Source of the DNA: Blasia pusilla
Taxonomy: Eukaryota
DNA: 64,000 bases
Assembly: GCA_050084515.1 (NCBI GenBank)
Contig: CM114271.1
Span: 9,424,001 to 9,488,000, forward strand
Direction: 5' to 3'
The notes under the pieces were generated by a model. The model ran no database searches and was not told where the DNA came from. It worked only from the letters and a program-made list of their open reading frames with translations. The position numbers were made by a program, and so were the translations under genes. Shown one piece after another: positions 6,245 through 42,400 of this stretch; the stretch's first letter is position 1, and every line of letters starts with the position of its first letter.

Positions 6245-6410
6245 GTCAATCGAACATCTCGTCGGAGTCCGACGAGTTGCATTCTTAAAAAAACATCTGA
6301 AAAAGCGTCGAGTCGAGCAACCCGTCGGAGTCCGACGAGTTGCTTTTGGCAAAAAAAACCTAACCCATTCATCAATCGAGCAACTCGTCGGAGTCCGACG
6401 AGTTGCGAAA
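6245..6410. repeat. Palindrome array in the remnant of ParB-MTase intron 2 (copy A)
   Basis: Three copies of (GCAAC)YCGTCGGAGTCCGACGAGTTGC, homologous to the reverse complement of 25540-25980; exon 2 donor junction near 6460. Confidence 0.8.
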
Positions 6411-11164: not shown

Positions 11165-12080
11165 CTTGCCTATTTATACTTTTTGAGCCGTTGGAATGAC
11201 CGTCGGGTCGCATTGTCGTTCCGACGGCGATGTGTCGGCCGTTATGGAAGTCTGGATGTGAAAACCACCAACCTGACGGCTCTGACGGGTTGCACGCTTC
11301 CCGCGGGTTCCAGGCATCCGTCCATCCTTGAAACCTGTCGGAGACCGACAGGGTGCGCGCCTCTGCTATCCTCGGGCAACAACACAAGGTACCCGCGCAA
11401 CCCGTCGGAGACCGGGGCGTTGCACGGGTCTTGGGATAACAAGGCGGGGCACCCGCGCAACTCGTCGGAGGCCGACGGGTTGCACGCTTCCTTCATGTAA
11501 GCGTTACAAGGCAAGGCACTTGCGCAACCCGTATGAGGCCGATGGGTTGCGCGCCTCCGCCATCTTCAAGCAAGAAGGCGGGGCACCCGCACAACTCGTC
11601 AGAGGCCGACGAGTTGCACGCTTCCTTCATGTAAGCATTACAAGGTGAGGCACTTGCGCAACCCGTCCGAATCCGACGGGTTGCACGCTTCCCTTATCTT
11701 GGGGTAATAGGCGAGGTACCAGGGAAACCCGTCAATTAGCGACAGATTGCATGCTTTTCTATCACTCGGGTAACAATGCAACAACGCATACTTCCGAGGA
11801 AACCCTTAGCAATCTGACGGGTCACAAGATCTACCATGAGTTGGACAATCCCACAAAAGTCCCCAAAGATTGGTTGCCTTAGCAAATGCAAGCAACGTCT
11901 CGTGTTTGATGCTAGCAAAATCGACTCAAAAGACCATTGGTCGGCAAGAAGGGGGTAGCAACCCAACGGACTTCAACGGGTTCCAACTTACATTGGGACA
12001 TGGAAACAAAAATAGAATTGGGTGCTACGCAACCCGTCTCTGATTCCCAAATTCTGCAATCCATCGGACTTTGGCAGGTT
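11165..12080. promoter_or_regulatory. Divergent promoter region with a TATA box (minus strand, ~11170-11179) and a ~60-bp-period palindrome array
   Basis: AGTATAAATAGG is conserved in copies A, B and C (AAGTATTAAA in D); repeated GCAACCCGTCGG-AGG/AGA-CCGACGGGTTGC. Confidence 0.65.
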
Positions 12081-12269
12081 GCAACAGAATTGAATCCATC
12101 ATGTCAGACAATCTCACCTACCAAACTTCATCTTGTCACTCATATTGTGTCAGGAGAATCTGAGTCCCTATTCACTATAAATTGAACATTCTCATTCTCA
12201 TTCTCATTCCCATACCCATTCTTATCCTCGTTCTTATTCTCTGTCTCCTCCCGATGGAATCTTCTAGGA

Positions 12270-15200
12270 ATGGATAATTATGTGAAGCTCACTTGTGGCA
12301 GTCATCTAGCGGCCCTTCCTCAATCAGAAATCGTTCAACCGCAAGCTTGTGAGTCTTTCATACTAGTGGATGAAAATTTCTCTCAGTTCGATTTCTTCTC
12401 CAAATTGGAACCATCTTTGTGTCCAAGGATGTTAGGGTGGACAGTACGGAGGACATAATAGGTGACACAATCCAGCCAATGATTGCAGACCGTAAAGTAT
12501 GGAATCTCCTACCTCTAGCAAATGGTCAATACAGAGTTTACGGCTGGCCTCTGAATTCCCCTTTTTCCCAAGTACACGGTTGAGAATTTCCTAGTGCATC
12601 GAGCTCTACGTTTGCAACTCCTAGCTCACTAGATCTGGCATCGAGTCCAACTTCACACTCTCGTAACAATGTTGTACTTCCTGAAGACATTATGGGTGTC
12701 GTCAACCTCAGTGGATCTGTCGGACACCAAATGGGCCCTCTGTCCGCCTACTCGTTCCTCTTGCGAGTATCCGGCAATAGTTTGCTATCGTCTCTAGCCT
12801 TGAAAATGTTCAAGCACATTCTTGTCCACGAGCTGCCGCCCACGTACGATGGTAATTGCATTTTTGAGTTGCCTCCACTTGCTGCTTCTGCTCAAAAGAA
12901 AGATGGAGGATGCTTGAAGGGTATGGATAGAAAGTCTGATTTTCATCGATGGTGCAGGCTTCAACAGACTAGTGCTTTAATTCCATATGGTCCTTGGATT
13001 TTCTTCCACCGCCAATGCGTTGGAGCCTTGGAGTGTAGGAGTCCAGAAGGCCCGTATCTAGAGCGCAACGGGCGGGTCAATACGTCCCAATTCCCCCCCA
13101 AGAATGCAGAAACTCCATATGAGATCGGTGCCACCATACCATCGGGAGGCCATCGATGTCCTCATTGTCAGGCATCCCCTTTCTTCGTTGGAGCGTGTCC
13201 TGCATACATATTTTTCATTGTCCACGACTTGGGCTCCACGTCAGAGTACACAAGGCTGGCAGTTCATGTTGGCTCCCACGCTCATCCTGTGACCGATGCA
13301 ATTCAGAGACACATCAAGGAGGGTGTGGCGAAGAAAGTGGCCGAGATCTACAGAAACTCTCCAAGTTCAAAGCCTGGAGTGATCAAGCTCACAACAACAT
13401 CACAAATTTGTGAACAATTTCTTGGAATCCCTAGACAAGACAAGATCACGGCTGCTGAGGAGAAACAACTCTGGGAAAATCTCGCATTTCTCGCTGATCC
13501 TGAATGCCTCCGGAATTTGTTGCGTCAAATACGAGTATTGGATGGAAAGACGGCAAAAATGGATGCCATTGCCAGAATCAAGGCCAACTCTAGATTTCCA
13601 TTCATTCAGAGATGGCAGTTCATGGGCTAGGGAGGCGAAGGATCCAGGGCCTATGTCTTCAAAATGTCAACGACAGGTTCGTCGAGTGGCCTCGATCTTA
13701 TAGATCGATTGAGGGAAGGGGAAGATCTTTACGGCAGCTGGGTAAACTTTGATATTTGCTATAGAGTGTTGAACGGATGGTTGACAATGGGTGCTCACGT
13801 TTATGACCATGTGGAGAAGGGACTCAAAAATATATTTGTGTGTGAAGTAAAGGCAGAAGACGTTGGCAGTTTGAAGATGTGCTGGTTACTCTCATTGGAG
13901 GTGGTGAAGGAAAACAAAAGGCCACCTCCGGAAATTTATGGGTTCATGGCGGACAATGCACAACCTAGGTGGATTGCTATCAGGGAAGTGTTCTGGGGTG
14001 GAGAGGTTCAACCGGAGAGGGAAAGGTCGGATGCTTTCCATTGGCAACACTGTGTGACCCGGTACACCAAATCTTGCATCAAGGAGAATAAGAGGACAGA
14101 GCATGTCACTCTACTCCAACGCTGCAAGGACAGCAAAACCTTGAAACAGGCCATGGAATGCCAAGAAGAACTTCATGGGTGGTGGAGGAAGCATGCGATT
14201 GAGGGTAAGTACAAAGAGTTGTGCTCTTGGTTGAGTTGGTGGACTATACGTATGAAACAATGGGGAAACTTCATGCGGCATGTGAGTTCACTATTTCGTA
14301 TTGTCAAGCTCACGTTGAGAATTGTTTGAAAAGTTGGAGCTCAAGTTGAGAATCGTGGGAACTATAGGGATTTCAAACCAAATAAACCAAGCAACTTGTC
14401 AGATGCGACAGGTTTCCCGAGTGTGCAACCCATCGGAAACAGACGGGTTGCTCGAGTGTGCAACCCGTCGGAAATGGACGGGTTGCCTGAGTGTGCAACC
14501 AATTGGAAACCAACGTGTTGCATCCAGAATTTTGGTGCAACCCGTATACAAGTATGCAAGTCGCATGTATACAAGGCCTGCAAATAGTTCGACACGGATG
14601 GGTTTCGGATGACTTGCACTTGGATCTTCCAGCCCGAAGTGGCCAAAGGTTCTTGCAAACCGTCGGAATGGGACGGGTTGCAGTAGGTGGTTCTTGGGTG
14701 TTGCAACACGTTGGGACCCGACGGGTTGCAGAGTCGTTCATGGGATGCCTCGGCCTTGCAACCCGTCTGGTTCCGACAGGTAACTTATTTCCTTGACTTC
14801 CTCCTGGAGATCGTCACAAGCATGCCAACGAATTTCACTTGTGGAGGCATGCCAACAAGACCAGGCAAGAGCAATGCTACAGTCTGCAGCATCCCATATC
14901 TTCCTCACAAAAGGCATAACAAAAGGAAGGGGGCCTTCGATCTACGAGCTCTATGTCAAGGCGGCTGTGAGATCTGGTGATGAAAAACTATATGTGGAAG
15001 CCTTCAACCGGTGTGTAGCAGGAACTCCCCTCGAGCAAGACGTACACATTGGTGGGGATATTCGTGGGCTCGCTTCAAGACGTCCCATACAGATGGTGGT
15101 AGAGGAGTCCGAGCGAGACTCGTGGAGACCAAATAAGTATCTTGACTTCAGGCAGGTGAAGAGGCAGCATCGAGAAAAGAATCCGGTGATTGATTTGGAT

Positions 15201-18277: not shown

Positions 18278-18683
18278 TACCCGAGGTTCGTAAGAGGAGA
18301 GAGAAGAGAGGAAGAGAGGAGAGAGGAGAGAGGAAACTACCTTCAACCAAAATAGATACTTTCTTTTAAGAGAGTTTCCGTTGGGTTGAAGAGAGGAAAC
18401 TTTTTGTGTGAATTTTTTTGCACTGTTTTGTTCACTTATTAAGCAGTCCCACAATTTTTCTTTTCTCTTCCATATTTTGGCAACCCATCTAAGTCCGACC
18501 GGTTGCAAATTGCACAAAATATACAAAACTGAAAAATCAGTGGAATCATAAGTGTGGAACCAATCACTTTTTCCATCCAAGGTCTGGAAACAATCTACCA
18601 TTTTCCCAGGCTGAATAGAGTTCAAGCTAAAAGTGAAGGTTCTTGAAAAATGAAAGTACAATCTAAAACCTCATTTTGCATCC

Positions 18684-21600
18684 TCAAAGTGATTTGTTTA
18701 AAATACTTCGCACTTCTTCGAGGGACAAAATTGGTTGGTGGATTCCTACTCCTACCTCGGACTCTCTTAAAACTACTAGCAACACATAGTACATGTGCTT
18801 ACAAGGGAAATACCTTTTGCCACTTGTCTCTCTTTGGACAAAGTCATCACATGAACATGTGGGAAAGCAACAGATGTGCGCCATATACACCCCTGTGACA
18901 CTTGAATTTACAGTGTTGTTCCTGACACAATACATCCTTCCTATTCCATTGCCACTCAAGACATCTTTCGTGGCGATGATCTCCATTTTTGCCTCTCGAG
19001 CTGATGCAATTCGCTTTGCTCTCTCCACCATTGGCCTACACATTTTGTTTCTCTTCACCCATTTCTAGACTCAAACAGAAATAGTGGATTGAGATCATCC
19101 ACCTTCTCCGGGTACATGTTGACATCAATCTTGGGTTGAATACAAAATGTGAAGGTCTTTGTAATGCGAACATGCTCCGAACTTACCACGTCTACGAGTC
19201 TGAAAACGGCACTTGTAAGATTGTCCACTTTGTCTTGAGTGCAGTTCGTACCTGCAGCGATGGGCCAAATCGTGGGGGTATTCCCCGGAGCTCCAATGGC
19301 CGTCGGATAAGACTTCCAGAAACCGCAAGATTCATTTGGGTAGAATAAGTACTTCAATTGATCCCCGATCCTCGTGAAACGATCAAAGGTTTTGAGTCCC
19401 CAAAACCCATGCAGTGGTCGTCCTATCCTTGTACAGTTCTTATTTAGGAAAGTGCCGCATGCTCTCCTAATGCCATCAGATCCTGCCCTGCAGGTGGGTC
19501 CACGTCCTAGGTTGCTCCGAGATATATGCCGCCGTTTTAGGTTGCAATCCACCTCCATTATCGGAATCCCATATTGTTGAACCACTCCAATGACCGGATG
19601 TTGCGAACTTCCAACAACGGAGGGCTTTTGAAATAAGACATTCACTGATTTTGGAGAAGGGTCTCCATCACGGATTTGGGAGCGGTCCGGGGTCCCCGAA
19701 TACCTGGGCAGCGTAATTTTCTCATCCAAATCAATCACCGGATTCGTTCCTCGATGCTGCCTCTTCACCTGCCTGAAGTCAAGATACTTATCTGGTCTCC
19801 ACGAGTCTCGCTCGGACTGCTCTACCACCATCTGTATGGGACGTCTTGAAACCCGCCCACGAATATCCCCACCAATGTGTACGTCTTGCTCGAGGGGAGT
19901 TCCATCTACACACCGGTTGAAGGCTTCCACATACAGTTTTTCATCACCAGATCTCACAGCCGCCCTGACATAGAGCTCGTAGATCAACGACCCTCTTCCT
20001 TTTGTTATGCCTTTTGTAAGGAAGATATGGGATGCTGCAGACTGTAGCATTGCTCTTGCCTGGTCTTGTTGGCATGCCTCCACAAGTGAAATTTGTTGGC
20101 ATGCTTGTGACGACCTCCAGGAGGAATGAACACTTTCTGCACCACTTGTGTTGGGGCAGAGGGCATTTTCATGAATGTTCAATCCCTGCAACGACGGCAA
20201 TGTTAGAGGGGAACAAAAATAACTCATGAGTCAAAGAAATAAGCTACCTCTCTGAACCAGACGAGTTGCAAGGCCGAGGCATCCCATGAACGACTTTGCG
20301 ACCCATCGGGTCCCGACGTGTTGCAACCCTAAACCCACCTACTGCAACCCATCGGAACCAGACGGGTTGCAAGGCCGAGGCATCCCATGAACGACTCTGC
20401 GACCCGTCGGGTCCCGACGTGTTGCAACCCTAAAACCACCTTCTGCAACCCGTCGGATTCAGACGGGTTGCAAGAACCTATGGCCACTCTGGAAGATTCA
20501 AGTGCAAGTCATCCGAAACCCATCCAGGTCGAACTATTTGCAGGCCTTGTATACATGCGACTTGCATACTTCTCTACGGGTTGCAGCAAAATTCTGGATG
20601 CAACCCGTCGGTTTCCGTCGGGTTGCACACTCGGGCAACCCGTCGCATCCGACAGCTTGCTTGGTTTCTTCGGTTTGAAATCGCTATAGTTCCCACGCTT
20701 CTCAACTTGAGCTGCAACTTTACAAACAATTCTTAGCGTGAGCTTCACAAGACAAAATAGTGAACTCACCTACCGCATGAAGTTTCCCCATTGTCTCATA
20801 CGTACAGTCCACCAACTCAACCAAGAGCACAACTCTTTGTACTTCCCCTCAATCGCATGCTTCCTCCACCACCTGTGAAGGTCTTCCTGGAATTCCATGG
20901 CCTGTTTCAAGGTTTTGTTGTCCTTACAGCGTTGGAGTAAAGTGACATGCTCTGTCCTCTTATTCTCCTTGATGCAAGATTTGGTGTACCGGGTCACAGA
21001 CTGTTGCCAATGGAAAGCATCCGACCTTTCCCTCTCCGGTTGAACCTCTCCACCCCAGAACACTTCCCGGATATCAATCCACCCAGGTTGTGCATTTTCC
21101 GCCATGAACCCATAAATTTCCGGAGGTGGCCTTTTGTTTTCCTTCACCACCTCCAATAAGAGTAACCAGCACATCTTCAAACTGCCAACGTCTTCTGCCT
21201 TTACTTCACATACAAATATAGTTTTGAGTCCCTTCTCCACATGGTCATAAACATGAGCACCCATTATCAACCATCCGTTTAGCACTCTATAGCAAATATC
21301 AAAGCTTACCTAGCTGCCGTAAGGATCTTCCCCTTCCCTCATTCGATCTATAAGATCGAGGCCACTCGACGGACCTGTGGTTGACATATTGAAGACATAG
21401 ACCCTGGATTCCTCGCCTCCTTGGCCCATGAATTGCCATCTCTGAATGAATGGAAATCTAGAGTTGGCCTTGATTCTGGCGATGGCATCCATTTCGGCCG
21501 TCTTTCCATCTAGAATCCGTATTTGACGCAGCAAATTCCGGAAGCATTCAGGATCAGCGAGAAATGCAAGATTTTCCGAGAGTTGTTTCTCCTCAGCCGC

Positions 21601-22934: not shown

Positions 22935-24062
22935 CTGTTGCAACCTGTCAGAGTCAGGTGGGTTACAGGATTTGGGAAACAGAGACGTGGGTTGCGAAGC
23001 ACACTTCATTTTTTTGGAACCCGTCGGAGTCCGTTGGGTTGGTACCCCCTTCTTGCCGACCGAAGATCTTTTGAGGCGATTTTGCTAGCATCAAACAAAA
23101 GATATCGCTTGTTTTTGCGGGATTGTCCAACTCAAGGTACATCTTGTGACCCGTAAGATTGCAATGGGTTTCCTCGGAATAATACGATGTCGCATTGTTT
23201 CCCGAGGGATAACCTGTTGATAACCGACGGGTTGCCCTGGTAACTCAACTATTAACCCAAGCTAAGCGAAGCCTGCAACCCGTCGGCTTCAAACGGGTTA
23301 CACGCTTCTGCCTTACCTTGTAACGCAAACATGAACGAAGCTGGCAACCCGTAGCTCTCCGACGAGTTGCGCGGGTACCGCGCCTTCTTGCCCGAAGATG
23401 GCGGAGGCGTGCAACCCGTCGACATCAAACGGGTTGCCCAATTATCTCATGGTGTAACACTTACATGAAGGAAGCGTGCAAACCGTCTGCTCCCATGAGT
23501 TCCACGAGTGCCGCACCTTCTTGCCCAAAGACGGCGAGGCGTGCCACCTGTCGCCCTCAGACGGGTTGCGCAAGGGCCTCGCCTTGTTTCGCTTATATGA
23601 AGGAAGCATGCAACCTGTCGGCCTCTGACTAGTTGCGCGGGAAGCCCGCATTGTTATCCCTTCACGAGGGAAGCGTGCAACCCAACGGTCTCCGAAGGGT
23701 TGCGTGGGTACCTCCCATTCTTGTCCGAAGACGGCGAAGATGCACAACCTGTCGGTCTCCGACGGGTTGCGCGGGTACCTCGAGTTCTTGTCCGAAGATG
23801 GCGGAGGCGCTCAACCTGTCGGTCTTCGACGGGTTGCTCGCGCACCTTGCGTTCTCGTCCCAAGAGGGCGGAGGCGCGCAACTTGTCGGACTCCGACGGG
23901 TTGCCACGAGGACATGCCTTGAACCCTCGGGAAGCGTGCAACCCGTCAAAGCCGTCGGGTTGTTGTTTTTCACGTCCTGACTTCCTTAACGGCCGGCACG
24001 TCGCCGTCGGAAGGACGATGCGACCCAACGGTCAGCCCAACGGCTCGAAAAGTATAAATAGG
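22935..24062. promoter_or_regulatory. Divergent promoter with a palindrome array and TATA box (AGTATAAATAGG, ~24051-24062)
   Basis: More than 10 degenerate 27-bp palindromes at ~60-bp spacing between the two start codons. Confidence 0.65.
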
Positions 24063-24339: not shown

Positions 24340-27300
24340 ATGACGAGGAAAAAATCTCAAGAAAACAAGGCTGGGAGCTTCACTCCCAAGTCCGTGAGGA
24401 CTCCTGCGTCACCATCTCCAGGGCCTCGTTCAGCCAATGAGATAAGGCAGCAAGAAATCGAGGAGCGGGAAAGGGAAGCGGAGATGCACAAGCAAGAGCT
24501 TCTTGCAAAACGTGTCTGAGGCGCTCGATAAGCGTAACGAGAGGCCGTGGCGTCGCGCAGCCTTGAAGAAAAGGGTTGATTTAAAAGCGAAAAAAGCGTC
24601 TGACGCCGCGTCGGTGAGAGCGAATTGGCTAAAGCTCGGAGGGAAAAATAAATAGCCATTGAAGAAAGCCTTGCTTGTCCAACCGAAAGTGTTGAGATGC
24701 GGGAAATGTCCCCGATGAAGTCTGGGGACACAATCAATATAGCGGAAACGGCCGAAGTTCAAGTCACGGACGATGAGGTCATGAGGACCGCCAGCGTGGA
24801 GATGGTGGACATCGCTGAAGAAGCAGGAGAGTGGTCATCCTCGTCTCTAAGCCCGGTGGAAGAAATCGACCTCTATCGGATCGAAGAGTTTCCAGTGGAC
24901 TTGCCAATTGCTATCTCAGAGCAGTTGGCTGGCCAAGACACCGACCCAATCTTCGAGCGGGTAAGAGAGGATCTGTGTTTTTTGAATTATGTGAAGGTCC
25001 ATGTTGCAATTCATTGGCAATTCAGTGTAGCTTATTGATCTTGTCCCCGTCGTGACAGGTGGTAAAGCAGATGGCACTGATGGAGGGCCACAACGCCCCG
25101 AGAATTCCACTCTGCCGATTGCGGACAATGGAGTACGTCCGAGAAATTCAGTCTGACGAGGATATTGCGAAGCTCAAACAATCGGCAGCGACAACATCCT
25201 ACGTCGACAACTTCCCTCCGTTCTATGTTCAGCCTTACGATGACCATGGAACCCAAGCGCTGGTTACGGAGGAGGACTTGGAATCGCTCGACATATTCTG
25301 GAGGATGAGAGATTAGGAATTTAGAAGGGCGATAGAGGGGACGGAATTCAGCTGGATGAGGAACCTGTATTTCTTCATCTGGGATGGAAATCACAGGTTC
25401 ATGGCGTGGAAAAAGTTTGCAGAGGAGCGCCCAAACTCCTTGGAGGCACATTTTTGCGTGAAGGCAGTGGTCCTTCATCCATACCCTCATCACATGGTGA
25501 CGGTGGAGATGGCCATGCATGCCATGAACACGTAAGTTTCTTCTTGCTGCAAATCGTCGGACTCCGACAAGTTGTTCGAGTCGCCACTATTTTTGGGATG
25601 TTTTTGGCCAAAAGCAACTCGTCGGACTCCGACGAGTTGCTCAACTGATCACTGGTTTAGGATGTTTTTGGCCAAAAGCAACTCGTCGGAGTCCGACGAG
25701 TTGTTCGACTGACCACAGGTTTAGGATGTTTTTGGCCCAAAGCAACTCGTCGGACTCCGACGAGTTGCTCGACTGGCCGCATTCTTTGGATGTATTTTGA
25801 AGAAAGACACTCGTCGGAGTCCGACGAGTTGCTTGACTCCCCACATTTTTTGGATGTTTTTTGAAGAAAGCAACTCGTCGGAGTCCAACGGGTTGCTTGA
25901 CTCGAAGCTGTCTTTGGAGGTTTTTGGATGTTTTTGGCCAAAAGCAACTCGTTGAAGTCCGACAGGTTGCATTCGGAAGTTGGGAGCTACATTCTTGGCA
26001 TCAAATTGCAGCTTTCATTGAAATTGCGCAACCTGTCGGACTCTGACGGGTTGATATGTTCACTTTTGATATGGACTATCTGATAACCCGTCGGAGTCCG
26101 ACGGGTTGAAACCAGAAAATCACAAATCTGAATGCAATCCGTGGGACTCCGATGGGTTGCAAAATTTAGCTCGTTGCTACAATCCGTCCTTGAGCTATGA
26201 CAACCTCTCGAAGTCCGACGGGTTGCAGGAACCCATGTATGTTACAAAATTTCTTATATTGAGTTTGGATGTGCAAGATTGTATCGGAGGGGAATGTCAC
26301 GCACCACTGGATCCAGGATTGCGATCGGGTGAAGAAAGTGCTAACGACGCACCCGGCAGAGTACAAGGGGTTCTTGGGCGACGCCCTTGTAAATGAGATG
26401 CTGGCAAAGGGTGCACAAATCAAAAAGAAGACTTGGGCAAATAAATTTATTTCCCAAGATGCAAACCATCACAATCCTTTCTTTGTCGTCGAAGATACAG
26501 GCCGCCAAGAAGAGCGCGCATTGAGTGGAGCGGAGGGAGAAAGTTTACGTATGCGAGCATGCAAAATTCATCCAAGCTGCGCAGTATCTCTGACTCACGA
26601 AGTACCACGACAAGCAAGATGACACTACATCGCCATTCTCAACCTTGAACTTGGTCTGGATTTCTACAAGGAGCTGAAGGCGATTATCAAGCGCGAGCGG
26701 AAAAGGGATGAAGATCCGCAAGGTCGGATTGGGGAGAAAGTGTCTCTCGATCGCGTGCATTGATTTTCCTTGTCTGGAATAAGCAAATTTAGGAGAATAC
26801 GACTGATGAAAATCAGTCTTGAGGGCACAGAGGCCCAAAAGAGGGTGGCACACCATCCTTCGGGTGTCTCTAATCCAGTGATCTCCCACTGGCTTCGCGA
26901 ATGGTCATTCTGGGACGTATTGCGGCTTGTCGGGAAGTCCATGCTTGTGGGTCTCCAAGCGGAGCTGAAAAGAATAGAGCCACTTCCAGAGGAAGAAAAC
27001 CTCGAGAATGCTGATGATTTTGAACTTAGGCTTGATGACATCCATAAAAAACCCAGGTTTCAGGACTATGTTCAAGGAATGCATCCTCCCTCAGGCAGAC
27101 CTTGACAAATAAATCGAGGTGAAAAAAAGGCATTTCGCAAAGAAGAAGCGAGATCTTCATGAGCAGGCGGCCGATGCATCTCGAATAAGAGTTGCCCAAC
27201 GCATGGTGTTCAGGTACCTCGTCCATTGTGAGAATGCAGGTACATGGCAAAAAATACCGGCAGCCTACAAATTGTGGGCTTCTCCGCCTGATGGAGAGAC

Positions 27301-28334
27301 ATATTCCATGTACGACACGGAGATGGCTCAAAGCATGTACGATTGGGAGGTGGAGAATTGCCCGATTTGGCTGGACTTCAACGACCCTGAGGACATAACC
27401 GAGAAAGATCTACGCCTGCTTTATGATGCAGTGGCCGCAGATAGGGACGACATCCCCAATTTTGTGCAGCTTGACTTAATTGAGAGCAACCCGTCGGAAC
27501 CCAACGGGTTGCAGGTGGTAATGCGTTTTCTGTGTGTTTCTGGAATGATGCAATCCTTCCGAAAGCGACAGGTTGCTCTCAGCCAACCATGGGCTGCTCT
27601 TAGCCAGCAACCTGTCGCCTTCCGACGGGTTGCTCATGGACAAAAACAACCCATCGGACTCCGACAGGTTGCTCCACTGTTAGGATTATAGCGAAGTTCT
27701 CTAGGGTTAAGCAAAGTTGTTTGGGGACGTGTTGCACATTATGTCACCATACTGAAAGTAGACCAGTGGTCAAGTAGCTCTTTCTTGGTGCTGACATTGT
27801 TTCCAATGTGCATCTTTACAGATGGACCACTCCTATGTTTACTGCTTTGTTCGGCCCGAGCACAACTTCCAGGTGTTTAAGATCCTGGATCATGTGGATC
27901 CATGCTCCGATGGGTACAGCTTAGATAGTTTATACAATTACCCCCCGGGAATTTACATGCAAGACGGTACCCCCTTACTTGGAGGAAGGGAAAATTTGCC
28001 AGCCCTGATGCAAACGCTCATCGAGCTCTCCTCAAGGCCGGGTGACCTGGTGTTCGACTTAGTGGGTCTTTCAGGGGTGAGTATCAGAGGCATCTGGCAT
28101 AGTGGCAGGAACATTCTCTGCCTTGAGGGAAGGCAACAACTATTGGACCTTTGCAAGGAGGCAAAGGCAGATTACGACATGCTATTTGGGGCGTACAACT
28201 CTCCTCCGAAGCCGAGAGCTCTGGTTCCAGACCCACCATTGGTAGTGACACCATCGTCACTTCCCACGATTCCAAATATCGGGAGGGCAAGGCCAACAGT
28301 AAAATTGCAAGAGCTATCGGACGATGACGAGTGA
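24340..28334 (+). pseudogene. ParB/Srx-domain plus beta-class N4/N6 DNA methyltransferase-like gene, copy B (exons ~24340-24960, 25059-25531, 26278-27470 truncated, 27822-28334)
   Basis: Exon 2: IPLCRL...VREI...IAKLKQS...PPFYV...FFIWDGNHRFMAW. Exon 4: GGRENLPALMQTLIELSSRPGDLVFDLVGLSG...GRNILCLE. Intron phases match. Confidence 0.8.
25540..26230. repeat. Tandem ~64-bp units, each with a 27-bp palindrome (ParB-MTase intron 2)
   Basis: GCAACTCGTCGGACTCCGACGAGTTGC at 25614-25640 and 25742-25768; near-perfect copies at ~25678, ~25807 and ~25870. Confidence 0.9.
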
Positions 28335-28390: not shown

Positions 28391-29520
28391 GATGACGAGG
28401 GCAAAAGAATTCATAGAATAGATCAAATGTACAATTCCGAGCTTCTTTTGGATGTAATAAAGGACAAATTTTTTTCGAACGATGGTGGTGTTTCTTAAAG
28501 TTTGTTGAATATCTTTTATGTCTTTTCGAATGTGATCATCTATGTACTTCAAAGATTTCTATTTTGCAACCCGTCGGATTTCCACGGCTTGCAACTTTTC
28601 ACTTTTTGACTAGTGCACCTTTTTAACCACTTCCAGGCAACCTGTCGGATTTCGACAGGTTGGCTCCGTGAGTGATCGGACTCTTTCCCTGTTGGTCCAA
28701 CTTTAGAGGCAGTCTGGCGGGCTTCTTCACTTTGGCACCTTCCCCTAGTATCGTCAAACAAGACGTAGGCTTCTTCTCTTCTCTCAGACGTGTTGGATTC
28801 CTACTACTTGTGGGATTGCCATTATGGTATTTCCAAGGACGGAGCACATATTGATACTGGATGGGTGTCACATTGCAGAGCGTACAAGATATACTGCCGA
28901 GGAAGGCGGTGGGACTCAAATCAGGTTACATGGGACCGTTATGGTGTACCTAAGGGGGGGGGGCCAAGGCTCTCAAATTCACCAACATTTTCAATCCCTA
29001 TCTACAATCGGCCAGAGGAGCCACTTGTATCCCAGGACATTCCTTTTGTATAGGAACCTAGGAGAGTTAGGAGTAAATTTGTAGATGACGAGGCTGAAGA
29101 AATCATAGACTAGATCGAATGTATATTTCTGAGGTTCCTTCGGAGGTAATAAAGGACGAGATTTTTTCAACCGATAATGGTGTTTGTAAAAGTTTATTGA
29201 ATTTTTTTTTTGGACTTGTGGATTGTGTTTGTCTAGCTACTCAGAATGTTTATTTTGCAACCCGTGTGATTCCGACGTGTTGCAACTTTTCACTTTTTCA
29301 CCACTGCAACTTTTCAACCATTTCCGGCAAAAGTCGCCGGTTCAGCGGGTTGGTCGCTTGAGTGGTCGGACTCTTTCCCTGGTAGACCAAATTCTGAGGC
29401 ATTGTGGCGGGCTTCTTCACTTTTGGCTCATTCCCCTAGTATCGTCAAACCAGTCTTAGGCTTCTTTTCTTCTCTAAGACGTGCTGGATTCCTATAACCA
29501 GTCGGATTGCCATTTCGGAT
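28391..29520 (+). repeat. Internal ~440-bp duplication (period ~690 bp) downstream of the MTase gene
   Basis: 28391-28830 resembles 29084-29520; the same arrangement is present in copies E and F. Confidence 0.7.
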
Positions 29521-30195
29521 TCCCAAACAGTTGAATTTTTGTAGGTACAGGGTGGAATGGAATCACTTCTCAAAATCTTTCCTTTGTTATGGTGAGAATG
29601 CTTGCAAGGGGTGCAAGCCATCTAATTCCGACGGGTTGCAAGAGTTGGAACCTGTAAAATTCCGACGGGTTGGGAGGGGTGGAGCATCTCAGTTTATCAG
29701 ATTTAGGATCTGAATGAAGGGACATCAGTTTCTCTTTACTCCAGACAGCTAACAATCTTTTGGTTTAATTATCGTCTCATGTGTTGAGATGAGATTGCAA
29801 CTTCTGGTCACATTATTTGCCAATGGTCATTAAAAAAAAATAGCCTTGGGCACAGCTTATTGTAGATTGAGATTGGCAATGTGAAAAAACTTGGGCTCAT
29901 ATGGAGAGTGATAGGAAAATGTTTGTAGTGGTCTTATGATGTCTACTACTTTTTAGCCCCCTGCAAAATGGAAGTTTCTTTAGGCCCGAACGTGGACCAC
30001 TACCTACTCTCTTCTAAAGATTTCATGAATTTGAAAGCAAACAAAAATTTCAAATATGTCAAAAAGTATTGAAGAGAGGAGGCGGATTTGGCCCTTTTTT
30101 TGAAGAGAGACTCTCCTCTCTTCCTCTCTTCCTCTCTTACTCTCTTCCTCTCTTCCTCTCCTCTCTTCCTCTCTCATGCCAGAATACCAGCCCTC

Positions 30196-35711: not shown

Positions 35712-38275
35712 TTGTCAATTTATCGATGGCGGGTGTCGACTTTTGGGAACTCAAAATTTGCAGCTTATCCACAAGAATTGTGCAGTGAATGATGACGCGT
35801 GTCCGGGTCGTTGTTTCTCTATGTCTTCCCAAGGATGATGGAGTGTATTCCACATCCTGGTCTGCTCCCTGAGACAAACCTCGCGCCTCTCGCTTCCGCT
35901 TTTCCCGAGTCTGCGGTCGGCTTGTTGGAGTCTCTATTACCTCGGACTCTGTTGGAGTTTTCTTGGGAGAGGACGTGGTCTGGCCCTCTCTCCCCACTCG
36001 CCCACACGATTCCGCCTCTTGCCTTGAATTCTCAGCCTCTTTTTTGGAAGACTCGACCTCAAAATTCTTTGATCCCCTCGCCTTTGCTTTCAGACCCGCT
36101 GTAGATTTGTCCTTGGCGGTAACGACCTTGGACACCAACTCCGCTGTCTCGAGGGCTTGCTTCTCCACATCTCCTTCGAAAAAGTCTTCAGGATGGATGA
36201 AATTCGGGATGTCGTCCCTACCTGTGGCCACTGCATCATACACCCATCGAAGATTGTTTTTGGTAATGTCCTCGGGGTCGTTGAAGTCCAGCCAGATTGG
36301 GCAATTCTCCACCTCCCAGTCGGACATGCTTTGAGCCATCTCCATGCCGTAACTACCTCTCCATCAGGCAGAGAAGCCCACAATTTGCAGGCTGCTGGTA
36401 TTTTTTGCCAGGTACTTGCATTCTTACAATGGATGAGGTACCTGAACACCATCCGTTGGGCACCTCTTTGTCGGGATGCATCGGCCGCCTGCTCCTGAAG
36501 ATCTCGCTTCTTCTTTGCGAAGTCCCTTTTCTTCGCCTCTATTTCTTCATCTAGGTCTGCCTCAAGGAGGATATGATCCTTGAACATCATCCTCAAGCCT
36601 GGGTTTTTCATGGGCTTGTCCCGGATGTCATCAAGCCAAAGTTTGAAATCTTCAGCACTCTGTAGGTTTGCTTCCTCCAGAACATGCTCTATTTTTTTTA
36701 GCTCTGCTTGGAGACCCACGAGCATGGACCTCTCGAGAAGCCGCAACACATCCCAGAATGACCATTCACAGAGCCAGTGGGAGATCACTTAATCAGAGAC
36801 ACTCGGAGGATGGTGTGCCGCCCTCTTTTGGGCCTCTATGCCCTCGAGACTGATTTTCATCTCACAGATTCTCCTGAATTCCAAAATTCCAGACAAGACA
36901 AATCTATGGACGTGGTCAAGAGATACTTTCTCCCCAATCCAACCCTGCGGATCTTCATCCCTCTTCCGCTCACGCTTGATTATCGCCGTCAGCTCCTTGT
37001 AGAAATCGGTGCCAAGTTTGGGGTTGAGAATGGCGATGTACCACTGTATCTTGCTTGCAGTGTACTTTGTAGCTGTAGATACTGCAGCTTGGATGAACTT
37101 AGCATGCTCAGACGCAGACACATTTTCCCTCTGCTCCAGCTCCAATGAAGCGCTCTTCTTGGCGGCTTGTATCTTCGACCAACAAAGGATTGTCACGACA
37201 ACATCTTTGGAAATAAAGGTATTTGCCCAAGTCTATTTTTTTATTTGAGCCCCCTTCGCCAACATCTCATTTACAAGAGCGTCGCCCAAGAACCCCTTGT
37301 ACTCTGCCGAGTGGATCGTTAGCACTTTCTTCACCCGGTCGCAATCCTGGATCCAGTGGTGGGTGACGTTCCCTTCGGATACAATCCTACACATCCAAAC
37401 ACACTAAAAGAATTTTTGCAAGCTACATGGGTTCCTGCAACTCGTCAAACTCCGACAGGGTGCTACACCTCATGACGGCAAAAATCAAGTTCCCCTATTC
37501 CAATCACCTACCCGTGGCGGCGAATGTAACCCGTCAGAGTCCGACGAGTTGCTTTCGGCCAAAAACATCCTAAAAACAGCGGCCAGTCAAGCAACTCGTG
37601 AGACTCCGACGAGTTGCTTTAAGGCATCCGATGATTTGGTACCACTAGTTAAACAACTCGTCGGAGTCCTACGGTTTGCAGCAATCAAAATAAAGGAAGA
37701 GGAAACTTACATGTTCATGGCATGCTTGGCCATTTCCATCGTCGCCATGTGATGAAGGTATGGATTTAGCACGAGTGCCTTCACGCAAAAATGCGCCTCC
37801 AATGAATTTGAGCGCTCCTCTGCAAATTGGGTCCACGCCATGAACCTGTGGTTTCCATCCCAGATGAAGAAATAGAGGTTCCTCAGCCTATTTTATATTG
37901 ATTGTGTCCCCGGACTTCATCAGGGACTTTCCTGCATCTCCACACTTTCGGTTGGACGGGCCAGGCTTTCTTCAATGGCAATCATTTTTTCCCTTCGAGC
38001 TTTTTCCAATTCTGCTCTCCTCACCAATGCGTCCGCACGCTTCTTTTCACGCTTTTTCTCGACGATCCTTTTCTTCAAGGCCTGCGACGCCTCAGCCTCT
38101 GCGTTCTATTTTTTGAGCGCCTCCAAAACACGTTTTGCAAGAAGCTCCCGCTCCTCGATCTCTTGTTGCTTTATCTCATTGGCCGAACAAGGCCCTAGAG
38201 ATGGTGATGCAAGAGTCCTCATGGAATTGAGAGTGAAGCTCCCAACCTTGCTTGCTTGAGATTTTTTCTCGTCAT
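35712..38275 (-). pseudogene. ParB-MTase gene, exons 1-3 partial (copy C)
   Basis: ORFs 35683-36345, 36090-36788 and 36789-37196; FFIWDGNHRFMAW near 37835-37872; deletion at ~37888. Confidence 0.8.
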
Positions 38276-39485
38276 TGTTCCCGAAATGCCTCCTCCTCAA
38301 AAACGAAGTTACTTTTTGTGCATGATGAGTCGCCTTGATGAGTTGCTCGAATCGTCTCAAGATGAGTCGCTCGAATCGTCTCGCGATGAGTCACTGTGTA
38401 AGGCACCCCTTGGTATCTAGTCAGTTGCTGCACGGAAGAGCAATCGAGATCGTGAAACGAAAAACCAGAAATGAGCAAACCCTCGCCTATTTATACTTTT
38501 CGAGCCGTTGGGCTGAACATTGGGTCACATCGTTGTTGTGACGGCGACGTGTCGGCCGTTATGGAATTCAGGACATGAAAACCACCAACCCGACGGCTTC
38601 GAGGGGTGCACGCTTACCGCAGGTTATAGGCATCCGTCCTCCTCGGGTTAAAAAGCCGAGCCATCCTGGCAACCCGTCGGAGACCGACAAGTTGTACGCC
38701 TCTGCTATCTTTGGGCAAGAACGCGAGGTACTCGCGCAACCCGTCGGAGACCGGAGGGGTTGCACACTTCCCTCGTCTTGGGATACCAAGGCGAGGTATC
38801 CGCGCAACTCGTCGGAGGCCGACGGATTGCACGCTTCCTTCATGTAAGCGTTACAAGGCGAGGCACTTGCGCAACCCGTCGGAGGCCGACGGGTTGCACG
38901 CTTCCCTCATCTTGGGGTAATAGGCGAGGTACCTGGGCAACCCATCAGTTACGGACACGTTGCACACTTTTCTATCCCTCAAGTAACAATGGGACAATGC
39001 ATAGTTCCAAGGAAACCCCTTGCAATCTGACGGGTGACAAGGTCTACCCTGAGTTGGACAATCCCGTAACTGTCCCCAACAATTGGTTGCCTTAGCAAAT
39101 GCAAACGATGTCTCATGTTTGATGCTAGCAAAATCGACTCAAAAGACCATTGGTCGGCAAGAAGGGGGTACCAACCCAACGGACTCCGACGGGTTCCAAC
39201 TTGCATTGGGACACAGAAACAAACAACGGAACTGGGTGCTTCGCAACCCACGTCTCTGATTCCAAAATTCTGCAACCTATTGGACTCTGACAGGTTGCAA
39301 CAAAATTGAATCCATCATGTCAGACAATCTCACCTACCAAACTTCATCTTGTCAGTCAAATTTTGTCAGGAGAATCTTAGTCCCTATTCCCTCTAAATTA
39401 AACATTCTCATTCTCATTCTCATACCCATTCCCATTCTTATCCTCATTCTTATTCTCAGTCTCCTCCTAGTGGAATCTTCTGGGA

Positions 39486-42400
39486 ATGGATAATTATGTG
39501 AATCTCACTTGTGGCAGTCATCTAGCGGCCCTTCCTCAATCAGAAATCGTTCGACCGCAAGCTCGTGAGTCTTTCATACCAGATGATGAAAATTTTCTCT
39601 CAATTCGATTTCTTCTCCAAATTGGAATCATGTTTATGTCCAAGGATGTTAGGGTGGACGGTACGGAGGACATAATAGTTGAGACAATCCATCCAGTGAT
39701 TGCAGACCGTAAAGTATGGAATCTCCTACCTCTAGCAAATGGTCAATACAGAGTTTACGGATTGCCTCTGAATTCCTCAATTTCCCAAGTAGACGGTCGA
39801 GAATTTCCTAGTGCACCAAGCTCTACATTTGCAACTCCTAGCTTAGTAGATCCGGCATTGACTCCAACTTACACGTTCATAACAATGTTGTTCTTCCTGA
39901 AGACATTCCGGATGTCGTCAACCTCAGTGGATCTGTCCGCCTACTCGTTCCTCTTGCAAGTATCAGGCAATAGTTTGCTATCGTCTCTCGCCTTGAAAAT
40001 GTTGAAGCACATTTTTGTCAACGAGCTGCCGCCCACGTACGATGGTAATTGCATTTTTTAGTTGCCTCCACTTGCTGCTTCTGCTCAAAAGAAAGATGGA
40101 GGACACTTGAAGGGTATGGACAGAAAGTCTGATTGTCATCGATGGTGTAGGCTTCAACGGACTAGTGCTTCAATTCTAGATGATCCTTGGATTGTCTCCT
40201 GCCGCCAATGCGTTGGAGCCTTGGAGTGTAGAAGTCCAGCATGCCCATATCTAGAGCGCAACGGGTGGGTCAATACGTCGCAATTCCCCCCCAAGAATGC
40301 AAAAACTCCATATGAGGTCGGTGCCACCATACCGCCGGGAGGCCATCGATGTCCTCATTGTCAGGCATCCCCTTTATGCCTTGGAGCATGTTCTGCATAC
40401 ATATTTTTCATTTTCCACGACTAGGGTTTGATGTCCGAGTACACAAGGCCGGCAGTTCATGTTGGCTCCCACACTAATCCTGTGACCGATGCAATTCAGA
40501 GACACATCAAGGAGGATGTGGCAAAGAAAATGGTCGAGGTCTACAGAAACTCCATATGAGGTCGGTGACCGGGTTCAAAGCCCAGAGTGATCAAGTTAAC
40601 AACAATATCACAAATTTGTGAACAATTCCTTGGAATCCCTGGACAAGGCGAGATCACGGTTGTTGAGGAGAAACAACTCTGGGAGAATCTCGCATTTCTC
40701 GCTGATCTTGAATGCTTCCGGAATTTGCTACGTCAAATACGGGTACTGGATGGAAAGACTGCCGAAATGGATGAAATTGCCAGAATCAAGGCCAACTCAC
40801 TCTACTCCAAGGCTGCAAGGATAGCAAAACCTTGAAACATGCCATGGAATGCCAAGAAGAACTTCATGGGTGATGGAGGAAGCATGCGATTGAGGGGAAG
40901 TACAAAGAGTTATGCTCTTGGCATAGTTGGTGGACTGTACGAATGAGACAATGGGGAAACTTCATGCGGCAGGTGAGTTCAATTTTTTGTCTTATCGAGC
41001 TCACGCTGAGAATTGTTTGAAAAGTTGCAGCTCAAGTTGAGAAGCGTGGGCACTATAGGATTTCAAACCAAAGAAACCAAGCAACTTGTCGGATGCGATA
41101 GGTTGCCCTAGTGTGCAACCCGTTGGAAATGGACGGGTTGCCTCAATGTGCAACCAGTCGGAACCCAACGGGTTGGAAGTCGCATGGCCAAATTTACTTG
41201 CAACCCGTCGGAATCAGACGGGTTGCCTAAGAGTGCAACCAGTCGGAAAAGTCAGAAATCGACGGGTTGCATCAAGAATGTTGGTGCAACCCATATACAA
41301 GTATGCAAGTTGCATGTATACAAGGCGTGCAAATAGTTTGATCCGGATGGGTTTTGGATGACTTGCACTTGGATCTTCCTGCCCAGAGTGGCCAAAGGTT
41401 CTTGCAACCCGTCGGAATTGGACGGGTTGCAGTAGGTGGTTCCTGGGTGTTGCAACACGTCGGGACCCGACGAGTCGCAAAGTCATTTATGGGATGCCTT
41501 TGACTTGCAACCCGTCTCATTCCGACATGAAGCTTTTTTCTCATACGTTGGAGCTATTTTGGTTCCCTTCTCACATTGCCGTCGTTGCAGGGATTGAACA
41601 TTCATGAAAATTCCTTCTGCCCCAACATAAGTGGAGCAGAAAGTGTTCATTCCTCCTAGAGGTCGTCACAAGCATGCCAAAAAATTTCACTTGTGGAGGC
41701 ATGCCAAACAATACCAGGCAAGAGCAATCCTACAATGTGCAGCATCCCATATCTTCCTCACAAAAGGCATAACAAAAGGAAGGGGGCCTTTGATCTACGA
41801 GCTCTATGTGAGGGCGGTTGTGAGATCGGGTGATGAGAAACTATATGTGTGAAAGCCTTCAATTGGTGCGTAGCACGAACTCCCCTCGAGCAAGATGTAC
41901 ATATTGGTAGGGATATTTGTGGGTGCGTTTCAAGACGTCCCATACAGATGGTGGTAGAGCAGTCCGAGCGACATTCGTGGAGACCAGATAAGTATCTTGA
42001 CTTCAGGCAGGTGAAGAGGCAGCATCGAAGAACGAGCCTGGTGATTGATTTGGATGAGGAAATCATGCCGCCCAGCTATTTGGAGACCCCAGATTGCTCC
42101 CAAATCTGTGATGCATTAACTTCTCCAAAATCAGTGAATGTTTTATTTCAAAAGCCTTCCGTTGCTGGAAGTTCGCAACATATGGTTGCTTGGGTGGTTC
42201 ATCAGTATGGGATTCCGGTCATTGAGGTGGATTGCAACCTCAAACGGTGGCATATATCTCAGAGCAACCCTAGACGTGGACCTACTTGCAAGGCAGGATT
42301 TGATGGCATTAGGAGAGCATGCGGCACTTTCCTAAATAAGAACTATACAAGGACTGGACGACCACTCCCTGGATTTTTGGGACCTCAAAACCTTTGATCT

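What the first reader, a model, noticed from the sequence alone, without database searches (positions are those of the whole stretch)
25540..26230. A 27-bp palindrome fills the element's introns and promoter but avoids exons
Seen: GCAACCCGTCGG-NNN-CCGACGGGTTGC (perfect at 49473-49499) occurs many dozens of times: in the promoter, the transposase intron, MTase introns 2 and 3 and the downstream region. It often sits at ~60-65-bp spacing with locally different flanks. I did not see it in the exons or the retroelements. The same motif in unrelated flanks suggests it is maintained as a binding site for a dimeric protein (operator- or parS-like), not as a simple satellite. It is rich in CG/CCG, so it is also a plausible methylation target.
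Basis: partly seen in the sequence, partly recalled or inferred. Interest (0 to 1): 0.82.

Follow-up and report, generated by a model that had tools for sequence, protein, structure and literature searches.

The report
Palindrome sites filling a transposon's non-coding DNA
A 27-base palindrome occurs 128 times in this window, only in the promoter, introns and tails of one DNA transposon family, and is most likely a set of docking sites for a paired protein made by the transposon.

Summary
The palindrome has 68 matches at up to 3 mismatches and 128 at up to 7, against about 0 expected. All 128 lie in non-coding parts of 4-6 diverged copies of one roughly 12-kb element. That element has a MULE-like transposase gene facing away from a ParB-like/N6-N4 methyltransferase gene. 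None lies in 24.6 kb of its coding DNA or in 17.3 kb of retroelements and other DNA.

The motif is really two 13-base arms around one free central base, with the centre reading G-A-N-T-C. Information content falls to about zero just outside it. The two arms show no pairing covariation, which argues against selection for a hairpin.

Two gene copies whose exons align at 77-82% share almost no intron sequence, yet each keeps 11-12 motifs. A 44%-identical relative carries three copies of a different 26-base palindrome in the same intron.

Best reading (0.45): cis-acting sites for a dimeric element-encoded protein, arranged in arrays that change size quickly. Binding, the protein involved, methylation and even the introns remain untested. 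No RNA support was found.

The parts
25549..26226 (.). 11 motif copies in the putative intron (about 25532-26260) after the ParB-like exon of the methyltransferase gene, copy M2. The first 6-7 form a 64-bp tandem array. This is the finding's own stretch.
   Evidence: The exon ends AC|GTAAGT at 25531/25532 (read). No RNA confirmation.
22940..23904 (.). 12 copies between the two oppositely facing genes of copy A2/M2 (putative two-way promoter). About 10 units form a 67-bp array and two are solitary.
20243..20626 (.). 6 copies in the putative transposase intron of copy A2, in 35-bp and 101-bp (46+55) units.
   Evidence: WGS reads show variants in unit number.
18480..18506 (.). Solitary copy about 180 bp past the transposase stop of A2 and about 200 bp from the element end. 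The same site is at 16420 (A1) and 43277 (A3).
27486..27672 (.). 4 copies in the putative intron between the methyltransferase motif-IV exon and motif-I exon (M2).
28566..29673 (.). 5 copies downstream of the methyltransferase ORF (M2).
11330..12082 (.). 10 copies in the promoter region of copy A1 (67-bp array plus solitary copies).
14425..14784 (.). 6 copies in the transposase intron of A1.
6254..6406 (.). 3 copies in a 63-bp array. The spacer is related to the 25549 array, so this is probably the remnant of A1's methyltransferase intron, cut off by retroelement insertions.
620..1036 (.). 5 copies in a fragment homologous to the methyltransferase downstream region.
37437..37679 (.). 4 copies in the methyltransferase intron of copy M3.
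38669..39298 (.). 8 copies in the promoter region of copy A3.
41115..41533 (.). 6 copies in the transposase intron of A3.
45585..46226 (.). 7 copies in the promoter region of copy A4.
49122..50039 (.). 12 copies in the methyltransferase intron of copy M4. They are not a tandem array. The stretch includes the perfect copy at 49473 and a 189-nt-arm inverted repeat (49707-49895 / 49933-50121).
52334..52805 (.). 7 copies in the second methyltransferase intron of M4.
56116..58380 (.). 11 copies in copy M5: 6 downstream of the gene and 5 in the intron.
61452..62578 (.). 8 copies in copy M6: 3 downstream of the gene and 5 in the intron, including a perfect copy at 62552.

Best explanation
The palindrome is a cis-acting double-stranded DNA site of this transposon family. 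It is recognised as two 13-base half-sites by a symmetric dimer of a protein, most likely one encoded by the element itself: the ParB-like/methyltransferase protein or the Cys/His-rich N-terminal part of the transposase. About 45-50 sites per roughly 12-kb element sit in the two-way promoter, the introns and the 3' regions. They occur alone or in 35- to 67-bp-unit arrays, so the element's whole non-coding DNA would be coated or marked.

The arrays grow and shrink by recombination between motif copies. In dead copies the sites decay, mainly by C-to-T changes.

Shown: the motif is discrete and symmetric; it is confined to the element's non-coding DNA; it outlasts the turnover of its flanks; a relative has a different palindrome in the same intron.

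Inferred: that a protein binds it, which protein that is, and what binding does (regulation, or aiming the methyltransferase at the element's own DNA).
For: 1. Sharp unit edges: 0.7-1.9 bits per position inside the motif and <=0.3 outside.
2. A13 and T15 are kept (98 and 92 of 128) while the dyad base is free (A40 C31 G36 T21). Those two bases cannot pair in a hairpin loop, so structure gives no reason to keep them. This pattern is typical of dimer sites (the comparison is from established knowledge).
3. No covariation between arms: paired cells 80.5% against 80.1% shuffled (111 of 500 shuffles as high); both-side changes 33 against 26.3 (51 of 500). Each arm is held to the consensus on its own.
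4. Confinement: 0 of 128 in 24.6 kb coding and 0 of 128 in 17.3 kb non-element DNA.
5. Copies M2 and M4 have exons that align end to end at 77-82%. Their motif-masked introns share only about 25 bp, yet they carry 11 and 12 motifs with a mean of 3.2 and 3.8 mismatches of 24.
6. Metagenome contig L001 encodes a 44%-identical transposase. At the same exon junction it has three copies of a different 26-bp palindrome, spaced 84 and 90 bp apart.
7. A published proposal holds that ParB-like/methyltransferase accessory proteins of algal transposons bind and modify their own element (PMC12477816, passage read).
Against: - No binding data of any kind.
- Between paralogous copies the arms are hardly better kept than neighbouring DNA. 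For A1-A3 pairs: arms 0.868, flanks 0.829, other non-coding 0.857, coding 0.910. For pairs with A4: 0.707, 0.628, 0.716, 0.850. Only transversions are clearly fewer in the arms than in the flanks (0.112 against 0.198), and array alignments are uncertain.
- Only 1 of 2 distinct relative families with usable DNA shows palindromes. L002-L005 and L007 (28-35% identity, degraded copies) show none.
- Part of the variety of flanks comes from duplications, including a 189-nt inverted repeat.
- The sites are internal, not at the element ends, unlike classical transposase-binding repeats.
- The DNA-binding domains are not identified: Pfam found nothing on the transposase N-terminus or the ParB-like exon, and the structure model failed.
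- At >=95% likeness, WGS depth is 160-630 on the transposase exons and 190-330 on its intron, but 6-9 on the promoter array and 15 on the 25619-26019 array. Most genomic copies therefore differ in, or lack, those arrays.
Confidence: 0.45

Rival explanations
1. By-product without function. The palindrome is recombination- and slippage-prone, so it seeds minisatellites and inverted duplications. These are tolerated only where they do no harm, in the element's non-coding DNA, and are carried along when the element multiplies.
For: - Unit number differs between copies, with breakpoints inside motifs.
- 277 WGS reads carry an extra 35-bp unit at 20600-20636.
- By my comparison of breakpoints with motif positions, 6 of the 7 skip variants I examined among the rows shown end at or within 10 bases of a motif. 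More rows were not shown.
- Larger inverted duplications exist around motifs (L001).
- Conservation between copies is close to that of other non-coding DNA.
Against: - It does not explain how one 26-position consensus came to lie in some 20 or more unrelated flanks within a single element while the dyad base and the flanks are fully randomised.
- It does not explain why motif number and sequence survive complete turnover of the rest of the intron.
- It does not explain why a distant relative has its own palindrome in the same intron.
Confidence: 0.2
2. Structure, not sequence, matters. The sites act as hairpins in the pre-mRNA (introns, UTRs) or as cruciforms or hairpins in single-stranded DNA during transcription, replication or transposition.
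For: - The consensus folds as a 12-bp stem: -15.2 kcal/mol as DNA, z = -7.2, with 0 of 200 shuffles as good.
- Most copies lie in presumably transcribed DNA.
- Extended foldbacks occur around motifs.
Against: - No excess of compensatory changes.
- A13 and T15 are conserved although they could not pair in a hairpin.
- No Rfam family matches.
- The arrays also fill the region between the two genes.
Confidence: 0.1
3. Host factor site. The palindrome is a repeated enhancer or silencer element read by a host transcription factor, or a preferred target of host cytosine methylation and silencing.
For: - Arrays sit in the putative promoter.
- Each arm contains CCGAC, which I recall as the core of a plant stress-response element. 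This is recalled, not tested.
- 256 of 519 deviations from consensus are C>T or G>A, at CG and at CCG.
- CpG observed/expected is 0.70-0.74 in the window.
Against: - 26 constrained positions are far more than known host factor cores need.
- The motif is absent from the other 17.3 kb of repeats in the window.
- A relative uses a wholly different palindrome, which fits co-evolution with an element protein better than a conserved host factor.
Confidence: 0.1
4. Tiny mobile palindrome. Like bacterial REP sequences or mitochondrial GC clusters, the 27-bp unit inserts by itself into new places.
For: The unit boundaries are discrete and the flanks unrelated.
Against: - None in 17.3 kb of non-element DNA in the window.
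- In alignments of 4 (A) and 5 (M) copies I saw no case of a single unit present in one copy and cleanly absent in the others. All differences are whole array units or larger deletions.
- No target-site duplication signal: flank information is about 0.
- 0 exact matches in 241 million metagenome records and in prokaryote genomes.
Confidence: 0.07

Closest known systems
Repeated transposase-binding motifs of cut-and-paste plant transposons (En/Spm-CACTA subterminal repeats, Ac/Ds hexamers, Mutator TIR sites). Recalled, not from a call.
   Same: A short element-specific motif is repeated many times in non-coding DNA of the element, partly as inverted pairs. It is presumed to be read by an element-encoded protein and to be sensitive to methylation.
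   Different: Those motifs cluster within a few hundred bases of the termini. Here the arrays are internal (promoter, introns, 3' regions), the unit is a long 13+1+13 palindrome, and the ends carry CT-rich tracts instead.
ParB-family binding sites in bacteria and plasmids (parS; sopC-type tandem arrays; scattered KorB-type operators). Recalled, not from a call.
   Same: Palindromic sites for a dimeric ParB-family protein, arranged either as tandem repeats with one palindrome per unit or scattered through promoters of one replicon. The element encodes a protein with a ParB_N-like stretch (lead only).
   Different: This is a eukaryotic nuclear transposon and I saw no partner ATPase gene. The ParB-like part is fused to a DNA methyltransferase. 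Its DNA-reading domain is unidentified, the palindrome is longer, and there is no binding evidence.
ParB-like/DNA-methyltransferase accessory genes of algal DNA transposons (Sola1-1_Ec32 of Ectocarpus; green and red algal elements). PMC12477816, passage read; PMC4738411, passages read.
   Same: An accessory gene with ParB-like and N4/N6 methyltransferase parts is transcribed opposite to the transposase. The authors propose that it binds and modifies its own transposon.
   Different: The passages I read name no cis site, and supplements were not seen. Here the transposase is MULE-like, not Sola or EnSpm, and a candidate site family is visible.
Bacterial REP/BIME palindromes with their RAYT transposase. 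Recalled.
   Same: Imperfect palindromes of 20-40 bases, clustered, excluded from coding DNA and lying next to a transposase gene.
   Different: REPs are spread through intergenic DNA genome-wide and are moved by an HUH enzyme. Here the motif stays inside one element family, and the transposase has a SWIM-like finger and a MULE-like core.
Short interrupted repeat cassettes (SIRC) of Arabidopsis. PMC10342631, abstract read.
   Same: Short repeats separated by diverse spacers, common inside mobile elements and thought to derive from internal transposon structure.
   Different: SIRCs are described as direct repeats dispersed in pericentromeres. Here the repeat is a strict palindrome tied to one autonomous element's promoter and introns.

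Membership tests
Subterminal transposase-binding repeats (CACTA/hAT/Mutator type) | The motif is clustered within a few hundred bases of both element termini. | tested here: not met
   The ends lie at about 18283 and about 30195 for copy A2/M2. The nearest motifs are a solitary copy about 200 bp from one end and copies about 500 bp from the other. The arrays lie 2-7 kb inside.
Subterminal transposase-binding repeats (CACTA/hAT/Mutator type) | The motif is bound by the element's transposase or an accessory protein. | not testable with these tools
   No DNA-protein tool is available. The model of the Cys/His-rich domain had pLDDT 38.
ParB-parS / sopC-type partition or operator sites | Palindromic sites, often in tandem units that each carry one palindrome. 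| tested here: met
   Tandem units of 63-67 bp and 35 bp each carry one 27-bp palindrome.
ParB-parS / sopC-type partition or operator sites | A cognate ParB protein with a sequence-reading helix-turn-helix is encoded nearby. | tested here: inconclusive
   Exon 25317-25532 gave no Pfam hit at E<=1 and no PDB sequence hit. The protein atlas gave ParB_N/DUF6551 clusters at 0.91-0.92 (a lead only). No helix-turn-helix was identified.
ParB-parS / sopC-type partition or operator sites | A partner ParA-type ATPase. | not tested
   No dedicated search was run. I saw only two conserved genes in the element.
REP/BIME with RAYT | Genome-wide extragenic distribution and an HUH (Y1) transposase. | tested here: not met
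   0 of 128 copies lie outside the element in this window. The transposase has a SWIM-like finger (E 0.0044, below Pfam's cut-off) and its relatives carry no Pfam family. The whole genome is not held.
MITE / foldback element | Each unit is flanked by target-site duplications and shows presence/absence between copies. | tested here: not met
   Flank information is about 0. No single-unit presence/absence was seen in the alignments.
Simple satellite or minisatellite | One homogeneous head-to-tail unit. | tested here: not met
   There are several arrays with unrelated spacers plus solitary copies, giving 43 flank groups. Individual arrays do behave as minisatellites.
Structured RNA family | A match to a curated family, or covariation that keeps pairing. 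| tested here: not met
   0 Rfam matches at gathering score in the window. No covariation above shuffles.

The most novel reading that the evidence does not exclude
A eukaryotic cut-and-paste transposon carries its own parS/sopC-like site arrays. Its ParB-like/methyltransferase protein loads on the 27-bp palindromes, whose centre reads G-A-N-T-C. I recall that sequence as the target of the best-known beta-class N6-adenine methyltransferases. The protein then methylates the element's own non-coding DNA, giving a self-addressed epigenetic mark that tells the element's DNA from host DNA. Each lineage co-evolves its own palindrome.
Probability: 0.15. Interest if true: 0.85.

Novelty: new variant of a known kind. 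Interest (0 to 1): 0.6.

Why it matters
ParB-like/methyltransferase accessory genes have been noted in algal transposons, with the suggestion that they bind and modify their own element (PMC12477816, passage read). The passages I read name no cis site. This window offers a concrete candidate: a discrete, symmetric, element-restricted site at about 45-50 copies per element, with a lineage-specific counterpart in a relative.

That turns a vague idea into direct experiments: binding assays, and base-modification calls at the motif centre. If the sites instead prove to be by-products, they are still a clear case of a short palindrome driving minisatellite and foldback formation inside a high-copy transposon.

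Tried and rejected
- **Whole genome:** not held, so genome-wide spread is untested.
- **RNA:** no RNA holder was listed for the stretch. Three raw RNA runs gave 63, 63 and 42 laid reads and no splice joint. The only RNA pile (25768-25900, 24 reads) carries a shared foreign end and comes from another locus.
- **Motif elsewhere:** 0 exact matches in metagenome contigs and in prokaryote genomes. In papers, only primer coincidences among the 20 of 51 hits listed.
- **Protein searches with nothing useful:**
  - 545-aa transposase ORF: none.
  - 423-aa ORF in the atlas: none.
  - Methyltransferase exon: none.
  - HMMER on exon 27113-27484: 4 weak hits (best E 3.8e-6). Three have no Pfam family and one is an unrelated protease-lectin protein.
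  - PDB sequence search: none for the ParB-like exon or the motif-IV exon.
  - Transposase relatives in viral contigs: none.
- **Structure:** the AlphaFold model of the Cys/His-rich domain (6-row alignment) had pLDDT 38, so no fold search was made. 'GCM/WRKY' remains unconfirmed.
- **Distant relatives:** L002-L005 and L007 have no recurrent palindrome. L006 is too short.
- **Rejected ideas:**
  - Helical phasing of sites: spacings of 35, 46, 55, 64, 67 and 71 bp share no common phase.
  - Terminal inverted repeats made of the motif: the ends are CT-rich instead.
  - GANTC enrichment: 46 of 128 centres are GANTC, which my hand calculation from the column frequencies puts at about the number expected. 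Outside motifs there are 275 GANTC, near my rough composition estimate of about 250.
- **Not used:** Complex prediction, because it does not model DNA.
Full report

Yes. The pattern GCAACCCGTCGG-N3-CCGACGGGTTGC has 68 matches at up to 3 mismatches, against none in 100 shuffles. Allowing up to 7 mismatches of 24 specified bases gives 128 matches, against 0.1 per Markov-simulated window. Perfect copies lie at 38871, 49473 and 62552.

The stretch named in the finding, 25540-26230, holds 11 copies. The first six or seven belong to a 64-bp tandem array.

This is the only palindrome family in the window. Of 25 perfect palindromes with stems of 9 or more, 21 are this motif, and the remaining 4 equal the null of 2-4.

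**2. What surrounds it?**

The window is eukaryotic and almost entirely repeats. Gypsy- and copia-type retroelements are identified by Pfam.

A self-comparison and two multiple alignments show four to six diverged copies (72-94% identical) of one composite element of roughly 12 kb. Its two genes face away from each other.

*The transposase gene.*
- It has a sub-threshold SWIM finger (E 0.0044) and a conserved Cys/His-rich N-terminal region.
- Its core has four relatives at about 46% identity among 5.8 billion protein clusters. None carries a Pfam family.
- I call it MULE-like from motifs I recognise, not from a family match.

*The second gene.*
- One exon gives ParB_N-type protein-atlas neighbours at 0.91-0.92, which is a lead only.
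- One exon has a D-F-P-Y motif, present in copies M4-M6 but deleted in M2.
- One exon has a weak N6_N4 methyltransferase match (E 0.0075, below the cut-off) and a weak match to M.RsrI (E 0.04).

Genes of this kind have been described as accessory genes of algal transposons (PMC12477816, passage read; PMC4738411, passages read).

*Copy number.* A 1% sample of a whole-genome run of the same species label gives depths of 160-630 on the transposase exons and 190-330 on the transposase intron. It gives only 6-9 on the promoter array and about 15 on the 25619-26019 array, all at 95% likeness. The family is therefore high-copy, and those arrays differ or are missing in most copies.

**3. Where the motif lies**

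All 128 copies lie in non-coding parts of this element:
- the region between the two genes;
- the putative transposase intron;
- two putative methyltransferase introns;
- the 3' regions.

None lies in 24.6 kb that I classed as coding. None lies in 17.3 kb of retroelements and other DNA.

The introns are inferred from several lines:
- ORF blocks and GT...AG boundaries;
- the four relatives' gene models, which all end where the transposase intron starts;
- contig L001, where the reading frame resumes with the same residues after about 360 bases.

RNA gave no support either way. Three runs laid 42-63 reads each and showed no splice joints.

**4. Anatomy of the motif**

- The arms are 13 bases long, not 12. 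A at position 13 occurs in 98 of 128 copies and T at position 15 in 92 of 128.
- The dyad base is free (A40, C31, G36, T21).
- The centre reads G-A-N-T-C in the consensus and in 46 of 128 copies.
- Information per position is 0.7-1.9 bits inside the motif. Outside it drops to 0.2-0.3 at the first base and to about 0 beyond.
- Deviations from consensus number 519 of 3328 positions. Of these, 256 are C>T or G>A, at CG and at CCG.

**5. Structure or sequence?**

The consensus would fold into a strong hairpin: -15.2 kcal/mol as DNA, z = -7.2. The two arms nevertheless do not covary:
- paired cells are 80.5% against 80.1% in shuffles (111 of 500 shuffles as high);
- cells changed on both sides number 33 against 26.3 (51 of 500).

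Each arm is therefore tied to the consensus by itself. The conserved A13 and T15 could not pair in a hairpin loop either. Both points favour a duplex site read symmetrically over a selected hairpin. No Rfam family matches.

**6. Is the motif kept better than its flanks?**

Two answers at two depths.

*Between paralogous copies*, with motif columns defined in a third copy to avoid circularity, the arms are only slightly better kept than the 20 bases beside them and no better than other non-coding DNA (one search agrees):

| Pairs | Arms | Flanks | Other non-coding | Coding |
|---|---|---|---|---|
| A1-A3 | 0.868 | 0.829 | 0.857 | 0.910 |
| with A4 | 0.707 | 0.628 | 0.716 | 0.850 |

Transversions are fewer in the arms than in the flanks (0.112 against 0.198). 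This is what decaying dead copies would show, and array alignments are unsafe.

*At greater depth* the answer is clear. Copies M2 and M4 have exons that align end to end at 77-82%. With motifs masked, their introns share only one segment of about 25 bp, yet they hold 11 and 12 motifs at a mean of 3.2 and 3.8 mismatches. Across all copies the flanks fall into 43 groups, an upper estimate.

**7. Dynamics**

- Copies differ by whole array units, with breakpoints inside motifs.
- 277 genomic reads carry an extra 35-bp unit at 20600-20636.
- By my comparison with the motif positions, six of the seven skip variants I examined among the shown rows end at or next to a motif.
- M4's intron contains an inverted repeat with 189-nt arms built of motif-bearing sequence.

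The palindromes are therefore hot spots of rearrangement.

**8. Relatives**

The exact motif is absent from 241 million metagenome records and from prokaryote genomes.

A protein-guided scan found 7 loci:
- **L001** (44% identity) has, right after the same exon end, three copies of a different 26-bp palindrome (TATTGCTAGCGCCGGCGCTAGCAATA) spaced 84 and 90 bases apart. One copy is extended to perfect 29-nt arms.
- **L002-L005 and L007** form a second family (28-35% identity). These are degraded copies with no recurrent palindrome.
- **L006** is too short to judge.

So one of two usable relative families shows the feature. The read-through tail of P0002 contains four residues that match the translation of L001's palindrome arm. 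This is a faint hint only.

**9. Explanation**

I commit to cis-acting sites for a symmetric dimer of an element-encoded protein, at 0.45. They are arranged in fast-changing arrays through all of the element's non-coding DNA.

I cannot say which protein binds. ParB-family proteins are known (recalled) to read palindromes in tandem or scattered arrays, and the centre of the motif matches a classic N6-adenine methyltransferase target (recalled). Against that, the transposase-plus-intron part is far more abundant in the genome than the methyltransferase part, and the relative's palindromes lie in the transposase intron.

The rivals are:
- a functionless recombinogenic by-product (0.2);
- a hairpin function (0.1);
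- a host-factor or host-methylation target (0.1);
- a self-mobile mini-palindrome (0.07).

**10. Comparison with known systems, and novelty**

The system works most like transposon-internal protein-binding repeats and like ParB site arrays, but it fails the positional criterion of subterminal repeats. It is not a REP, a MITE or a single satellite.

I found no paper naming this motif. Searches returned no paper that describes palindrome arrays in ParB-methyltransferase transposons. These searches cover open-access text only. Supplements were closed, and the red-alga paper was not held.

I rate the finding a new variant of a known kind, with interest 0.6.

**11. Limits**

- No genome is held.
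- There is no binding, modification or splicing evidence.
- The domain names for both proteins rest on weak hits.
Its repeats look plant-like to me, which is an inference from the Pfam families and the CCG-type transitions.

Noticed in passing
window 9800-30200, 35650-53400, 55200-64000: The window is a nest of 4-6 copies (72-94% identical) of one roughly 12-kb composite element: a MULE-like transposase facing away from a ParB-like/N6-N4 methyltransferase gene. Neighbouring copies lie in alternating orientation, tail to tail and head to head, and retroelements are inserted between or into them.
   Followed up: partly
window 16600-16650, 18283-18335, 43468-43505, 30114-30195, 55212-55270, 60032-60100: Both ends of the element carry CT-rich tracts of 40-60 bp in inverted orientation. 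The transposase-side end is sharp (...CCTCTCCTCTTAC, then unrelated DNA in three copies). The other end runs to ...GCCAGAATACCAGCCCCCC. No classical terminal inverted repeat was found.
   Followed up: partly
window 27474/27475 versus 51506-52277, 58427-59177, 62643-63406: Copy M2 lacks about 800 bp that copies M4-M6 have. The missing part includes the exon with the methyltransferase motif IV, which reads D-F-P-Y in M4 and D-L-P-S in M5 and M6.
   Followed up: partly
window 25314 and 19057: Copy-specific defects. The stop codon at 25314-25316 starts with T where all 32 genomic reads have C. At 19057, 339 of 441 reads have an extra C that would join the 19055-20230 ORF to the SWIM-finger ORF.
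   Followed up: no
window 18000-30000 (read depth): At 95% likeness the transposase half is 10-100 times deeper in genomic reads than the methyltransferase half and the promoter arrays. Most genomic copies may therefore lack or differ in the accessory gene.
   Followed up: no
window 49707-50121: An inverted repeat with 189-nt arms (83% complementary, 37 nt between them) lies inside the methyltransferase intron of copy M4 and is built of motif-bearing sequence.
   Followed up: partly
window 10919-11076, 24164-24251, 38337-38392: A second set of short tandem repeats (13-, 24- and 26-bp units, not palindromic) lies just upstream of the methyltransferase gene's start in each copy.
   Followed up: no
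window 12187-12241, 39403-39463, 45450-45480: A (CATTCT)n microsatellite lies directly upstream of the putative transposase start codon in several copies.
   Followed up: no
window 8562-9149: A gypsy-type retroelement has a PHD finger after its integrase (Pfam E 5e-8).
   Followed up: no
window 25768-25900: 24 RNA reads from three runs cover two units of the 64-bp array. They all carry T>G at 25783 and the same foreign upstream sequence, so a piece of this array is transcribed from another locus.
   Followed up: no
L001 1172-1231: In the relative's intron one palindrome copy is extended to a perfect 60-bp palindrome (29-nt arms, 2 nt between them).
   Followed up: partly
window 16659-18277 and 46708-47935: A 1.2-kb sequence (86% identical between its two copies) follows the end of copy A1 and is also inserted in the promoter region of copy A4. 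It holds no motif and was not identified.
   Followed up: no
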